Source: Candidatus Saccharimonadota bacterium
Lineage (GTDB): Bacteria; Patescibacteriota; Saccharimonadia; Saccharimonadales; UBA4665
Direction of reading: 5' to 3'
NCBI GenBank assembly: GCA_002952755.1
Contig: CP025011.1
Coordinates: 120,001 to 152,000, forward strand
Length of the DNA: 32,000 bases
Shown: positions 2,869 to 23,524 of the stretch, in pieces
How positions within the stretch are numbered: position 1 is the stretch's first letter
Layout: each line of letters opens with the position of its first letter
The notes under the pieces: model-generated
The model's database searches: none
What the model was told of the DNA's origin: nothing
The model's input: the letters and a program-made list of their open reading frames with translations, nothing else
Position numbers and translations under genes: made by a program

Positions 2869-3990
2869 TTAAGATATATCAAGCCCTTGTTTCTTCTGTA
2901 TAAGAACCTTGAATTCGCCAAGATCGCCAGGGTCGATCAGCCGCTCGGCTGTCGCTTTGGCAGCGGGCTCATGCACGAGTTGTAGGTCGAGAGCATAACC
3001 ATAGCGCAACAAGAAATCGCGCTGATACTCATAGTTTTCAGTGATCAGGTGGGCTGCGGTACCGGCACGCATAATGTCGCTAAAGTTCGCCTTGGCGGTG
3101 ATGTCGACACGCCCAGGATAGCGCAGTGCATTCCGGATGGCATAATTACGCACCTCAGGTCCTCCTTCAAAGATGGCGTACGCAGCAAAATTGTCACCAT
3201 GTGCCGCAAGTAACTCTGCCGTATTCCCATAGTCGATAGTAAGCACGAAGCCCTCGTGCAGGATACGCCCCACTTCTTCCATCCAGGCGAATAGCATCGG
3301 CTGCACAGGCATTTCGATCCCTTCTTGCATGATGTCTTCGTAGTACAATGGATCGATCTCTGGGGAGACATCAGCTTCTACTTCGACCAACGTACCGGTT
3401 TGATCGACGTCAACGTATATTTCCCGTAGCTGCCCACGGCGTTTGATGAGCCGATGGGGTGGGAAGCTGTCGCTGAGCTCGTTGGAGATGACTACACCCG
3501 TGACACTGTTGGTCGCCAAACCGGTATCTGTTGCAGATACACCGGTCCAGGAGATTTTGTAGTCTTTGAGCATTGTCTGCTGGCGTTTTTTTAGGTCTGC
3601 GCTGAGTTCGACAATAATGTAGTCAAGGGCAGCGCCAAATTCGGTAGGCTGCTCACGCTGTATCGCTGTTAGAATGTCGCGAGCCCAGGTACCATTACCC
3701 GCGCCCATTTCTATAACCGTAAAGCGCTTGGGGCGATGTAGCTCTTCCCACATGTCACGCAAGGCGCGGGCTGTGGCATTTCCGAATAGTGGGCTCAGCT
3801 CTGGACTGGTGGTGAAATCTTCGGTCTGATTGCCGATGGTTACATGACCTTTTGCGTAGTAGCCGTAATGGGGGTCGTAGAGGCATAGCCGCGTGAATTC
3901 AGCAAAGGTAAGAGGTGTGCCACGCTTGCGGATGACCGTAGCGATTTCATGCAACGCCGAGGGATGGGGCCGGGGGTGGGGCTTGCTCAT
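2869..3990 (-). CDS. SAM-dependent methyltransferase, MidA/NDUFAF7 (DUF185, COG1565)-like
   Basis: It has an FTTSPELSPLFG motif and a VIEMGAGNGTWARDIL SAM-binding loop. The track start at 4008 is TTG. The ATG at 3990 is preceded by TACAGT-N6. Confidence 0.65.
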   Translation of the reverse strand: MSKPHPRPHPSALHEIATVIRKRGTPLTFAEFTRLCLYDPHYGYYAKGHVTIGNQTEDFTTSPELSPLFGNATARALRDMWEELHRPKRFTVIEMGAGNGTWARDILTAIQREQPTEFGAALDYIIVELSADLKKRQQTMLKDYKISWTGVSATDTGLATNSVTGVVISNELSDSFPPHRLIKRRGQLREIYVDVDQTGTLVEVEADVSPEIDPLYYEDIMQEGIEMPVQPMLFAWMEEVGRILHEGFVLTIDYGNTAELLAAHGDNFAAYAIFEGGPEVRNYAIRNALRYPGRVDITAKANFSDIMRAGTAAHLITENYEYQRDFLLRYGYALDLQLVHEPAAKATAERLIDPGDLGEFKVLIQKKQGLDIS

Positions 3991-20377: not shown

Positions 20378-20452
20378 TGGTGCGGGTGGGGAGAGTCGAA
20401 CTCCCGTAGCCAGTTTGGAAAACTGGAGTAATGACCGTTATACCACACCCGC
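20378..20452 (-). tRNA. tRNA-Gly (anticodon TCC), CCA encoded
   Basis: The reverse complement has acceptor GCGGGTG/CACCCGC, anticodon arm CCAGT-TTTCCAA-ACTGG and T arm GGGAG-TTCGACT-CTCCC. Confidence 0.9.
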
Positions 20453-20842
20453 ATAATGAGACAAACCTCTGGTTTTTCTCATCGCGCCGCGCTTTGGCAG
20501 AGCCAAAGTCTCGGGCTGCTCTTTTCCAGAGCTTTTAGCAGACTGCACTCCCTCCAAGCTAGGAAACCGTCAGGCCAAAACAAGTTTGACCTGCCAGTTA
20601 CCTAGCTCCAGGATGCTTCCTCTTCCCCACAAAAAGCTATGCTTTTCGCGGGGACCCGTTTTGTCATCGCACCTTTTCGGCGAAGCCGAAATTGTCCGTA
20701 CCGGGCAACCGGTGCTGCTCTTTTTTCGGGCCCTTAACTCCGTAAGCCTCTCCATAAAAAACTTCGTTTTCGTGGGACTTTTGCACTAAGGGACGTTCAG
20801 GAGTTGGGGAAGAGCATGTGCGCTTATTTGAAACACTGAACA
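20453..20842 (-). ncRNA. Candidate ~390-nt structured RNA directly upstream of tRNA-Gly; possibly a divergent RNase P RNA (rnpB)
   Basis: The roughly 520-bp gap has no credible ORF. A strong promoter lies at 20849-20857. Many local hairpins are present, including a 13-bp one (CCCCGCGAAAAGC-ATA-GCTTTTTGTGGGG). Short motifs collinear with the E. coli M1 RNA as I recall it are described in the findings. The boundaries are approximate. Confidence 0.45.
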
Positions 20843-20848
20843 GGGGTG

Positions 20849-20857
20849 ATTATAGCA
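20849..20857 (-). promoter_or_regulatory. Extended -10 promoter TGcTATAAT driving the candidate ncRNA and tRNA-Gly
   Basis: The minus strand reads TTGTGGCTTTTAGCCCATGAACCTGCTATAATCACCCC. Confidence 0.6.
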
Positions 20858-21017: not shown

Positions 21018-21167
21018 ATGTACGGAAGAATTCTGGGCGCTAGCACTGGTGTAGGTACCGCAGCAGTTGCCACGATCCTGCCAAACACGGGCAGCAACAT
21101 GGTCATCGACGTCGCTATTTCGGTAGCTGCGGGTTTGGCCGTTTGGGGCTTTTTGTCTCGTCGTTAA
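21018..21167 (+). CDS. 49-aa micro-protein consisting essentially of an LPXTG-type sorting signal (LPNTG + hydrophobic segment + RR)
   Basis: It is too short for the ORF track and was translated manually: MYGRILGASTGVGTAAVATILPNTGSNMVIDVAISVAAGLAVWGFLSRR*. An AAGGGAG SD lies 6-7 nt upstream and an in-frame TAA at 21000-21002 blocks any upstream extension. Confidence 0.6.
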   Translation: MYGRILGASTGVGTAAVATILPNTGSNMVIDVAISVAAGLAVWGFLSRR

Positions 21168-21193
21168 TCCTTTAAAGGAACGAGAATAACGAA

Positions 21194-21412
21194 ATGACAC
21201 GGTGGTTTAGTCAGCCGTTCACACATATTAAGCGAGGGGTAACCTCGCTTTTTGTGTGTTTTATAGCGGTTTTGCCAATTCTATTATTCGGATACTGGGC
21301 TTACTCATCAGCGCAGGCTGTGGCATCACGTCACAAATCACATGCGGCGGTTGCCTCTCCTATCCAAACAGTACAGCGGATGAATACTCAAATAACGACG
21401 GTGGATTTCTGA
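21194..21412 (+). CDS. Small single-pass membrane protein (72 aa)
   Basis: It has a TM segment, LFVCFIAVLPILLFGYWAY. Its stop lies 1 nt before the glycosyltransferase ATG. Confidence 0.5.
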   Translation: MTRWFSQPFTHIKRGVTSLFVCFIAVLPILLFGYWAYSSAQAVASRHKSHAAVASPIQTVQRMNTQITTVDF

Positions 21413-21413
21413 T

Positions 21414-22562
21414 ATGTGCATTACGGAAACTGAACACGAAATAGGGAAAGTAATCCTGCGATCTGCTACGAAGAAGCGAGCCCGTAAGCCGCGCAAGCGC
21501 CGCATTATGTTGGCTTTATTGATCGCGGCCCATAACGAAGAGCTAGTGCTTGAGAACACTATTCGTTCGGCCATCAAAGCTGGTATGAACCCCAAGGATA
21601 TGTACGTCGTTGACGATAATTCGAACGATGATACCAGCAAGATTGCTAAAAGCATACTTGGCAAAGACCACGTTATCAAAGTGCGTCGCAGTGGCAAGGG
21701 TTTGGCTGTTACTAAAGCAAATAAACACTTTAAATTAAGTAAGCGCTATCGTTGGATTCATATTGCTGACGCCGACGGTGGCTTTGCAAGCAATTATTTT
21801 GCCGTCTTACGTGCGGCGTTACGTCCCGACTATGCTGCAGCCAGCGGCTTTGTGCGCAGCCTGCCGGGCGGTAATGTGGGGCAGTTCCGTGTCTTTGAAT
21901 ACACCTTTGGCCAAGAAATCCATAGGCGTTTTCAGGCCATGATGGGCGCCGTAACGGTAATTCCCGGACCCACTTCTATTTTCCGCTCAGATGTCTTCGA
22001 AAAAGTAAACTTTGCAAACCATTCGTTAACTGAGGACTTCGACGTCACGCTGCAGATTCATCGCCAGCGCCTGGGCAGGATTCAGTTTATTCCGCAGGCT
22101 ATGGCATACACCCAGGATCCACGCACCTTTGGAGACTTCACCAAGCAGGTAAGCCGCTGGAACCGCGGACTCATGCAAGGTTTTTTGACCCACCGCATTG
22201 GCCGGAAGGCGCAGCGCATTGATTTCTACCTGACATATCAGGTGCTGCAGAATATTGCCTTCTTTCTGAGCTATTTCCTCGTGCTCCCTTTCATGGCAAT
22301 TTCGCACCACTCTATAACGGTTGTAGCCGTGGCCTTCTTATATGACGTTGCTGTACTGCTCCTTTTAGTACTCCTGACGGCTATGCGTGCCGGCCGCTAC
22401 GATATTCTAAGTAACTTCCCGCAGATATATACGCTGCGTTGGGTGACGCTAGGCATATTCTTACGCTCGTTCTTCGAAGTCGTATTCTTACGCAAATTCA
22501 AAGGTCCTCAAGGCGCCTGGGACACCGAAGGCCGCCGGTACAAACAAACCGTTACGCTATAG
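21414..22562 (+). CDS. Family 2 glycosyltransferase, processive beta-glycan synthase type (PgaC/IcaA/cellulose-chitin synthase-like)
   Basis: It has LIAAHNEE, VVDDNSNDDT, ADADGG and TEDFDVT motifs and a QVSRW (QxxRW) motif, followed by C-terminal TM helices. Confidence 0.85.
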   Translation: MCITETEHEIGKVILRSATKKRARKPRKRRIMLALLIAAHNEELVLENTIRSAIKAGMNPKDMYVVDDNSNDDTSKIAKSILGKDHVIKVRRSGKGLAVTKANKHFKLSKRYRWIHIADADGGFASNYFAVLRAALRPDYAAASGFVRSLPGGNVGQFRVFEYTFGQEIHRRFQAMMGAVTVIPGPTSIFRSDVFEKVNFANHSLTEDFDVTLQIHRQRLGRIQFIPQAMAYTQDPRTFGDFTKQVSRWNRGLMQGFLTHRIGRKAQRIDFYLTYQVLQNIAFFLSYFLVLPFMAISHHSITVVAVAFLYDVAVLLLLVLLTAMRAGRYDILSNFPQIYTLRWVTLGIFLRSFFEVVFLRKFKGPQGAWDTEGRRYKQTVTL

Positions 22563-22631: not shown

Positions 22632-23420
22632 TTAGAACCAGCTTTTGATGGCGGACCAGAGGGAGGTGCTGTGATCGGCGCCTGGGATATCAGTTTTGGA
22701 GGGCTTGACTGTCGGTCTGGCGGCAGGTGCAGCGGTTGTATGGGCAGGTGCAGGGCTGATTTGCTTGGCGTGGACGACCAGGCGATTGGTACTGGTGCCG
22801 ACAGGGGTGCAGGTGATGAGTGACAGCGTTGGAGTGGCGGCTTGGTTGAGCACGCTCAAGTCGTCGGGTGAGATGACCTTCGTGTCGGTAACTTGGTAGA
22901 CATAGGCGATGCCCTGGTAGTTGATCTGCAGTTGGTCGCCAACCTTAACCTTATCGAGCAGCGTAAATATCCACTTATAGTCGCCAGGCGCCCATGGTTG
23001 GCCGCTGCTGTGGCCAACGATAACGACGGTCCCGTTCTGCCCGGGCAAGGCGGTATTGCCGTAGTGGACAGTGCCGTGCCGCAGAGCAATCTGCACCTTC
23101 CACTCAACGGTAGACGGTTCGTCAAAGACGATGGGCGCATTAACGTTAATAGAAGGAACGACCAGTGAGGATGGTGCATTGGGATCGGCTTTAGGCGTGG
23201 ATGCAATCGTTGCTGAAGCGACGGGTGGATGGGGGATAATAATCGCCGCGGCGCTATTGCGCCCGGCAAAGGCATAGTGAATGCGTGCCCATATGAGCTC
23301 GCCGTTGAGCAATCCGAGTACGCCAGCCATAACGGTCACACCAATAAGAGGCGGCACGATATGCTTGCGGAACGAAAAGGGCATCTTAGGTACTTTAGGC
23401 CGTGCGGGCTTATCCGACAT
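22632..23420 (-). CDS. Sortase (transpeptidase) with an N-terminal membrane anchor
   Basis: It has a VGHS catalytic His region, an LSLITCTP (TLxTC) Cys motif and a downstream conserved Arg (NRLVVHA). The TM segment is IVPPLIGVTVMAGVLGLL. The start at 23420 (MSDKPARPK) is preferred because TATACT lies 9 nt upstream. The track start is 23483. Confidence 0.85.
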   Translation of the reverse strand: MSDKPARPKVPKMPFSFRKHIVPPLIGVTVMAGVLGLLNGELIWARIHYAFAGRNSAAAIIIPHPPVASATIASTPKADPNAPSSLVVPSINVNAPIVFDEPSTVEWKVQIALRHGTVHYGNTALPGQNGTVVIVGHSSGQPWAPGDYKWIFTLLDKVKVGDQLQINYQGIAYVYQVTDTKVISPDDLSVLNQAATPTLSLITCTPVGTSTNRLVVHAKQISPAPAHTTAAPAARPTVKPSKTDIPGADHSTSLWSAIKSWF

Positions 23421-23524
23421 ATTACGCATAGTATACATTAATATAGCTATTTTTGCAATACCTCCCTGGCGAGACAATATCACGAAACTAAATCTTGTTA
23501 TTTTTAAGGAGAGGGTTGCTTCTT

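What the first reader, a model, noticed from the sequence alone, without database searches (positions are those of the whole stretch)
20453..20857. A ~390-nt ORF-free, hairpin-rich transcription unit fused to tRNA-Gly, possibly a divergent RNase P RNA
Seen directly: a roughly 520-bp stretch in an otherwise tightly packed window has only two implausible 61-67 aa ORFs. On the minus strand an extended -10 promoter TGCTATAAT (20857-20849) precedes about 390 nt that runs straight into tRNA-Gly at 20452. The predicted RNA contains many stable local helices: GTTCAG/CTGAAC, CCCTTA/TAAGGG, AAAAC-GAA-GTTTT, ACCGG-TTGC-CCGGT, TTTCGGC-TTC-GCCGAAA, the 13-bp CCCCGCGAAAAGC-ATA-GCTTTTTGTGGGG, CTTTGGC-TCT-GCCAAAG and ATGAGAAAAACC-AGA-GGTTTGTCTCAT. 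It also has a 10-nt long-range complement, CTCTTCCCCA/TGGGGAAGAG. Compared with the E. coli M1 RNA sequence as I remember it, there are collinear short matches. AAAGTCC lies at about nt 63, against the CR-I sequence GGAAAGUCC at about nt 63. AGAGCAGCACCG matches AGAGAGCAAACCG. GAAAAGGTGCG matches GAAAGGGUGCG. GCTAGGTAAC matches GCUGGUAAC. GGCAGGTCAAACT matches GGCACGGUAAACU. CCCGAGACTTT matches CCCGGCUUA. AAAGTC and GACTTT could pair as a short P4. Against this assignment, I could not build P1/P2, the P4 helix would be only 6 bp, and the local hairpins do not reproduce P13/P14. The element is therefore either a reduced or divergent rnpB or a different large structured RNA or tRNA leader.
Basis: partly seen in the sequence, partly recalled or inferred. 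Interest (0 to 1): 0.6.

Follow-up and report, generated by a model that had tools for sequence, protein, structure and literature searches.

The report
Stacked hairpin repeats in tRNA leader
The folded 390-base stretch in front of tRNA-Gly is not an RNase P RNA but a pile-up of four copies of two small, uncatalogued hairpin repeat elements of Saccharibacteria, one of which lands with single-base precision at the ends of tRNA genes.

Summary
The promoter, hairpins and lack of a credible ORF are real (fold z -5.1). The RNase P idea fails. A canonical rnpB (243 bits) lies elsewhere in the genome, the region has no Rfam hit, and its likeness to rnpB is at shuffle level.

The leader is a mosaic of two Saccharimonadales hairpin repeats: a decayed B hairpin, a truncated long A copy, a B copy and a complete short A copy. 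Of 22 orthologous tRNA-Gly leaders, 21 carry no module. Only the closest relative has a similar stack, with the same core order.

Family A covaries, occurs 0-27 times per genome and sometimes duplicates its target; this scan found it before on other DNA and in this genome. Family B was not retrieved from earlier notes. All 40 B copies inspected abut a tRNA or tmRNA end, either just before +1 (sense) or right after CCA (antisense), without target duplication, and they fold best on their own strand either way.

Most likely these are non-autonomous elements moved as single-stranded DNA hairpins and tolerated because RNase P removes the leader. The enzyme is unknown and transcription was not tested.

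The parts
20839..20857 (-). Promoter of tRNA-Gly: extended -10 TGCTATAAT (20857-20849) and the CCTGTT motif around the expected start (about 20841)
   Evidence: same motif 17-23 nt upstream of tRNA-Gly(TCC) in G010, G014, G018; start site inferred
20779..20838 (-). Unassigned 5' segment, not more folded than chance, not shared with G021
20747..20778 (-).
   Evidence: aligns to the B hairpin of G038 with 3 gaps and 3 mismatches over 35 columns; a TCCCACGAAAAC hairpin sits at the same place in G021; HMM score weak, 6-8 bits
20658..20726 (-). Family A, long (branched) variant; 5' stem only, 3' hairpin missing
   Evidence: HMM built without the window, 34.7 bits, E 3e-10; complete copy at the orthologous place in G021
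20541..20657 (-). Family B element: CCCCGC/GTGGGG hairpin (20653-20625), purine linker, long stem with ACTTGTT loop; terminal TGAC motif decayed to AGTC (20544-20541)
   Evidence: HMMs built without the window, 93.8 and 57.1 bits; consensus structure with 16 of 44 pairs showing double changes
20528..20540 (-). Short linker that can pair with the 5' end of the following A copy
20456..20527 (-). Family A, short variant, complete: GGAAAAGAGCAGC, variable hairpin, GCGATGAG, 3' hairpin ending TCTCAT
   Evidence: HMM built without the window, 66.5 bits; covariation across 54 copies; absent at this place in G021
20378..20452 (-). tRNA-Gly(TCC) with encoded CCA, 3 nt after the last hairpin
   Evidence: acceptor stem stays paired in the full precursor, pair probabilities 0.96-0.98

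Best explanation
The stretch is the 5' leader of pre-tRNA-Gly, inflated from about 10-20 nt to about 390 nt by successive insertion of two small non-coding hairpin elements (A and B) between promoter and tRNA. SHOWN: the modular make-up; empty leaders in most relatives; a related stack in the closest relative; dispersed copies of both families; B's base-precise junction with tRNA ends and lack of target duplication; long flanking direct repeats at some A copies. INFERRED order: a core of decayed B hairpin, long A and B was present in the ancestor of G000 and G021 with B abutting +1; the G000 line then gained a short A between B and +1, lost the 3' hairpin of long A, and let B's end motif decay. 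INFERRED mechanism (about 0.5): the elements move as folded single-stranded DNA recognised in trans by an unidentified nuclease or transposase. B is joined 3' of a short CC(N) motif at tRNA-gene ends, as IS200/IS605 and REP elements are joined next to short targets; A uses a staggered cut that duplicates the target. INFERRED tolerance: each module folds on itself, the acceptor stem stays free, and the genome's ordinary RNase P cuts the leader off, so the stack is close to neutral.
For: HMMs built without the window cover about 255 of 390 nt at 35-94 bits, plus a weak 32-nt module. 21 of 22 orthologous tRNA-Gly(TCC) loci have no module. G021, closest by rnpB (91%), has the core in the same order (score 225 against 121 +/- 9) with different extra modules. 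A: 0-27 copies per genome, none found in 27 of 60 relatives; only in this order among 150 phylum genomes; about a third of 112 copies in sense tRNA leaders against 3 antisense, and 14 with 11-50 nt direct repeats against 1/300 background; 95.7% of cells paired, 158 double changes. B: 40/40 copies at tRNA or tmRNA termini, 22 sense at +1 and 18 antisense at CCA (counted by eye where the script's pattern failed); direct repeats at background length, better fold on the element strand in 32/34 including all 15 antisense copies, covarying pair beside a tandem GA motif in 29/34. The A 3' loop is C-GNA-G in 56/107 against 0/116 rnpB loops, a loop type known from very stable DNA hairpins (PMC13037366, PMC3201870). 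B hairpins sit at the internal junction of A in four other loci.
Against: No mobilising enzyme found: no A or B copy near 12 Y1 transposase genes, weak co-occurrence (Fisher p 0.09, not phylogenetically independent), complete genome G032 has 8 A copies and no Y1 hit, no reverse transcriptase in G000, one A copy within 1.5 kb of 25 GIY-YIG loci. No target duplication flanks the window's modules. A's strong bias for sense orientation in tRNA, rRNA and ribosomal-protein units could reflect an RNA-level host function. About 60 nt at the 5' end is unassigned. The B model carries a few tRNA-start columns, which biases towards tRNA-adjacent hits; but the 7 near-complete B copies first found with a tRNA-free query were all tRNA-adjacent too. 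Copies share ancestry, so loop and pair counts are not independent. No expression data.
Confidence: 0.8

Rival explanations
1. The modules are host-maintained RNA signals (5' stabilising or processing hairpins, or protein-binding sites) placed in highly expressed transcripts, and the stack tunes tRNA-Gly maturation.
For: A is almost always sense in tRNA leaders and rRNA and ends 3-16 nt before +1; G-U pairs outnumber A-C mismatches 19 to 7; a stack persists in two species.
Against: No A copy found in 27 of 60 relatives and no module in 21 of 22 orthologous leaders; B copies antisense to the tRNA still fold best on the non-transcribed strand; modules here are truncated or decayed.
Confidence: 0.13
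2. One large functional ncRNA of a new kind (GOLLD- or ROOL-like) co-transcribed with tRNA-Gly, with long-range helices.
For: z -5.1; the G021 leader has nearly the same length (-10 to +1: 398 against 402 nt) and folds well (z -7.7).
Against: The two leaders reach that length with different modules; long-range helices are not shared; B and short A pair almost only within themselves; no phage record matches and plasmids give only a chance 23-mer.
Confidence: 0.04
3. Circularly permuted group I intron core, with the 10-nt complement as P3 and AAAGTCC/GAGACTTT as P7 (my own early idea).
For: The order and the bulged A of the two pairings fit a permuted P3/P7 pseudoknot by eye.
Against: GAGACTTT is the variable hairpin arm of short A: 0 of 7 other copies carrying it have AAAGTC upstream; neither pairing exists in G021; probabilities 0.05 and 1e-6; no RF00028 match in the genome or region.
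Confidence: 0.02
4. Reduced or divergent second RNase P RNA.
For: Short collinear word matches; divergent RNase P RNAs do occur in CPR genomes (PMC8172020).
Against: Canonical rnpB present at 243 bits; no RF00010 or RF00011 signal here; shuffle-level similarity; four of the six matches lie in confidently assigned repeat modules and one in the decayed hairpin.
Confidence: 0.01

Closest known systems
REP / BIME elements with TnpA-REP (RAYT) (PMC8266576)
   Same: Short non-coding hairpins with a conserved stem irregularity, dispersed between genes, assembled into mosaics, strand-asymmetric, patchy copy number.
   Different: 70-125 nt two-hairpin units rather than 20-50 nt palindromes; no 5' GTAG (GTAG forms a loop in A); few copies; no adjacent Y1 gene found; strong preference for tRNA and rRNA sites.
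IS200/IS605 elements such as IS608, and their non-autonomous derivatives (PMC5934647)
   Same: B is oriented and hairpin-rich, and is joined precisely next to a short motif (CCN on the opposite strand in 31 of 38 junctions), without target duplication.
   Different: No transposase gene; guide-target pairing not shown; targets are nearly all tRNA-gene ends in Saccharimonadales. A duplicates 11-50 nt, which this family is not known to do (own knowledge).
Rickettsia palindromic elements, RPE (PMC1779305)
   Same: Interspersed 100-150 bp hairpin repeats with lineage-specific proliferation in a small-genome bacterium, mobiliser unknown.
   Different: No sequence relation tested; RPEs are abundant inside protein genes, whereas these favour tRNA leaders, rRNA and operon spacers.
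Bacterial RNase P RNA, class A/B (RF00010, RF00011)
   Same: Similar length; a few 7-13 nt word matches.
   Different: No model match, no P1/P2 closure, no P4, not conserved in relatives; the true gene is elsewhere.
23S rRNA intervening sequences
   Same: A copies sit inside 23S rRNA genes as self-closing stems (L004, L009, L126, L147).
   Different: The same unit occurs at many non-rRNA sites; excision untested.

Membership tests
RNase P RNA (RF00010/RF00011) | Covariance-model match | tested here: not met
   No match at E up to 10
RNase P RNA (RF00010/RF00011) | P4 pseudoknot joining CR-I and CR-V; P1 closing the ends | tested here: not met
   Proposed helix probability about 1e-6, not in G021; ends do not pair
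RNase P RNA (RF00010/RF00011) | Single essential gene conserved in relatives | tested here: not met
   rnpB is elsewhere and conserved; this leader is empty in 21/22 orthologues
RNase P RNA (RF00010/RF00011) | Cleaves pre-tRNA leaders | not testable with these tools
   needs an in vitro assay
REP/BIME with TnpA-REP | Dispersed extragenic hairpin repeats forming mosaics | tested here: met
REP/BIME with TnpA-REP | 20-50 nt palindrome preceded by a conserved tetranucleotide (mostly GTAG) | tested here: not met
   Units are 70-125 nt with two hairpins; no 5' GTAG
REP/BIME with TnpA-REP | Cognate Y1 gene flanked by the repeats | tested here: not met
   0 of 12 Y1 loci carry A or B; only 12 of 38 hits were fetched
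IS200/IS605-type non-autonomous element (module B) | Oriented insertion 3' of a short fixed target, no duplication | tested here: inconclusive
   No duplication; junction motif CCA 18, CCT 6, CCG 6, CCC 1 of 38, but tRNA ends supply these letters anyway
IS200/IS605-type non-autonomous element (module B) | Subterminal hairpins working on one strand | tested here: met
   Better fold on the element strand in 32/34, independent of transcription direction
IS200/IS605-type non-autonomous element (module B) | Guide tetranucleotide pairing with the cleavage site; TnpA-dependent excision | not tested
   No autonomous partner known to test against
Group I intron (permuted) | Conserved P3/P7 core with G-binding site | tested here: not met
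tmRNA, SRP, 6S and other Rfam families | Rfam match | tested here: not met
   No hit here or on B/A modules in 11 related loci; tmRNA lies at G000:302776-303165

The most novel reading that the evidence does not exclude
Family B is an undescribed class of gene-less mobile element that an unknown enzyme inserts with single-base precision at either end of tRNA (and tmRNA) genes, on either strand, without damaging them, by recognising the folded single-stranded gene end. Related units occur in Clostridia-like contigs and a prophage, so the system may be widespread.
Probability: 0.4. Interest if true: 0.65.

Novelty: new variant of a known kind. Interest (0 to 1): 0.42.

Why it matters
The locus itself is a near-neutral pile of repeats and should not be annotated as rnpB or as a new large RNA. 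It matters as evidence that even 1-Mb Saccharibacteria genomes carry uncatalogued structured repeats that collect in tRNA leaders, rRNA and ribosomal-protein operons and can mimic large RNA genes. The base-precise, two-orientation targeting of tRNA-gene ends by family B points to an unidentified insertion enzyme with an unusual safe-harbour specificity, which can be tested once a partner is found.

Tried and rejected
RNase P, tmRNA, group I intron and all other Rfam families. Permuted group I core. Coding potential of four short ORFs. Phage, plasmid and IMG/VR homologues: none for A or for the whole leader; two IMG/VR pattern hits for B, of which L302 has the same match coordinates and contig length as L223 and L303 was not examined. 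Candidate mobilisers: Y1 TnpA, reverse transcriptase, GIY-YIG; none linked. A K-turn reading of the tandem GA motif: by eye no conserved bulge or C-stem, so only a tandem GA flanked by pairs. A hammerhead or group II domain V reading of A: by eye the core residues are missing. Target duplications around the window's modules: none. The simple promoter scan did not report this promoter. The metagenome scan for B was mostly chance hits, 9 contigs with real copies. Literature searches found no description of either family; the library lacks most subscription journals.

Full report
Setting. The window lies at 120001-152000 of a single-contig 1.45-Mb genome. Its shared repeat is found almost only in Saccharibacteria/Saccharimonadales records, so the genome very likely belongs to that order (inference).

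Observation. The promoter-like TGCTATAAT (20857-20849), the tRNA-Gly(TCC) at 20452-20378 and all named hairpins are present. The minus strand folds at z -5.11. The short ORFs have no family match and no ribosome-binding site. The long-range features are not beyond chance: the 10-nt complement is matched or beaten by 33 of 500 shuffles and has ensemble probability 0.05; the 6-bp 'P4' has probability about 1e-6; the first 120 nt has z -0.08.

Not RNase P. A full-length class A rnpB (243 bits, E 4e-80) lies at G000:1303374-1303747, and the protein subunit gene at 3433-3756. Rfam gives nothing for the leader at E up to 10. Alignment of the leader to two real rnpB genes scores at shuffle level (64/300 and 192/300), whereas the two rnpB genes score 427 against each other. 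tmRNA is also elsewhere. Divergent RNase P RNAs exist in CPR but were still found by lowering model thresholds (PMC8172020).

What it is. BLAST against 60 relatives hit the leader in separate pieces, many of them multi-copy. Profiles built without the window resolve it, 5' to 3', into a decayed hairpin (20778-20747, weak), a long variant of family A lacking its 3' hairpin (20724-20658, 34.7 bits), a family B element (20657-20544, 93.8 bits) and a complete short A (20528-20454, 66.5 bits) ending 3 nt before the tRNA. About 60 nt at the 5' end stays unassigned.

Orthologous sites. Of 22 other genomes with a tRNA-Gly(TCC) match, 21 have no module upstream, and several show the same -10 plus CTGTT motif 17-35 nt before +1. 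The exception, G021, is the closest relative by rnpB identity (91%) and has the same neighbouring genes. It carries a roughly 386-nt stack with the same core order but a complete long A, extra 5' modules, no short A, and B joined directly to the tRNA. The similar total length is therefore reached with different parts. Inferred history: core stack in the common ancestor; later, in this lineage, gain of short A between B and +1, loss of about 20 nt from long A, and decay of B's TGAC end to AGTC.

Family A. About 70-90 nt: purine linker, a tandem GA motif at the base of a variable stem, and a 3' hairpin. Across 54 copies 95.7% of cells pair and 158 show double changes, above all shuffles and slid controls (the flanking motifs are invariant partly because they were the search pattern). 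Copy number is 0-27 per genome, four model hits in this genome, and it was found only in this order among 150 phylum genomes. Of 112 pattern-selected copies (rough automatic classes, a few mis-calls), about 35 are sense tRNA leaders, 3 are antisense near tRNAs, several lie in or before rRNAs, and many lie between genes that look translation-related. tRNA leaders make up only about 1% of non-ORF DNA here. Fourteen copies have 11-50 nt flanking direct repeats against 1 in 300 controls; two copies in this genome have 21- and 11-nt repeats. The scan had reported this family several times; my tests agree.

Family B. About 125 nt: a first hairpin, purine linker, tandem GA with a covarying neighbour pair (A-T 13, G-C 11, G-T 5 of 34), a long stem often capped by ACTTGTT, and a GACG end. 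The model hit 23 of 149 order genomes and 5 of 22 genus genomes. All 40 copies inspected abut a tRNA or tmRNA terminus: 22 sense, mostly with one base between GACG and +1, before at least nine tRNA types; 18 antisense, mostly with GACG directly against the complement of CCA. There is no target duplication, and the element strand folds better in 32 of 34, including all 15 antisense copies tested, where it is not the transcribed strand. The model contains a few tRNA-start columns, but the first seven near-complete copies came from a tRNA-free query and were all tRNA-adjacent. Related units occur in Clostridia-like contigs and a prophage-like contig (assignment by eye), mostly away from tRNAs. 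B hairpins are nested at A's internal junction in four other loci, the same arrangement as the long A/B join here.

Mechanism. The strand asymmetry of B regardless of transcription, and the C-GNA-G triloop of A (56/107, against 0/116 in rnpB, whose loops are GNRA-type in 47), suggest that the fold is selected in single-stranded DNA. GNA loops form very stable DNA hairpins, and RNA versions of such mini-hairpins are weaker (PMC3201870, PMC13037366). B works like IS200/IS605 or REP elements, which move as single-stranded hairpins and are joined next to short targets (PMC5934647, PMC8266576); this is likeness, not membership. No enzyme was linked: Y1 transposases do not flank the modules and co-occur only weakly, there is no reverse transcriptase, and GIY-YIG genes are not associated. 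tRNA-primed reverse transcription could explain the antisense class but not the sense class. In the full precursor the modules near the tRNA pair within themselves and the acceptor stem stays formed, so ordinary RNase P processing should remove the leader (inference). A host role for A at the RNA level is not excluded, given its sense bias.

Verdict. A real feature with a wrong first label. It is a mosaic of uncatalogued hairpin repeats, a new variant of bacterial interspersed mosaic elements. Family A is already known to this scan; the tRNA-end precision of family B is the part most worth following. Expression could not be tested. Interest 0.42.

Noticed in passing
G000:C1:302776-303165 (L033): tmRNA found by RF00023 (59.7 bits) but missed by ARAGORN.
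   Followed up: no
G000:C1:769912-769988, 775022-775108, 89777-89852: Three more family A copies: between ribosomal-protein genes (read by eye as rplC/rplD, 21-nt direct repeat covering the ribosome-binding site and start; and rplX/rplE) and upstream of a dnaK-like gene beside a CIRCE-like repeat (11-nt direct repeat).
   Followed up: partly
L004, L009 (two copies), L126, L147; L133, L142, L153: Family A inside 23S rRNA genes and just before 16S and 5S rRNA genes, always sense.
   Followed up: partly
L347, L348, L350, L353, L368, L384: tRNA-Gly genes are repeatedly hit by family B at their CCA end in antisense orientation in six other genomes.
   Followed up: partly
L362:1500-1622: A decayed family B copy abuts what reads as the 3' end of tmRNA in antisense orientation (identified by eye).
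   Followed up: no
L345, L351, L353: Family B joined to a partial copy of a tRNA 3' end; in L345 and L353 the intact tRNA lies 74-147 nt further on.
   Followed up: no
L185 (G003), tRNA-Gly leader: A short syntenic leader ends in GACGT directly before +1, like B's right end; possibly the relic of a deleted B.
   Followed up: no
L030, L089, L310, L316, L308: Family A interrupted at its internal junction by a B hairpin (four loci) or by an unrelated insert of about 85 nt (L308).
   Followed up: partly
L201, L204, L207, L223/L302, L232, L242, L260, L264: Family B-like units in Clostridia-like contigs, two in phage-like context; no Rfam match in the four tested.
   Followed up: partly
window 20839-20857 and many tRNA promoters: A CCTGTT/CTCTGTT motif recurs just after the -10 box, and often upstream of it, in Saccharimonadales tRNA promoters.
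   Followed up: no
G000:C1:642082-643188 (L291): Two tandem Y1 (IS200-type) transposase genes, not flanked by A or B.
   Followed up: partly
window 21018-22562 and 22632-23483: Small LPNTG peptide gene, family 2 glycosyltransferase and sortase next to the leader; the peptide and glycosyltransferase region is syntenic in G021, the peptide region in G003.
   Followed up: no
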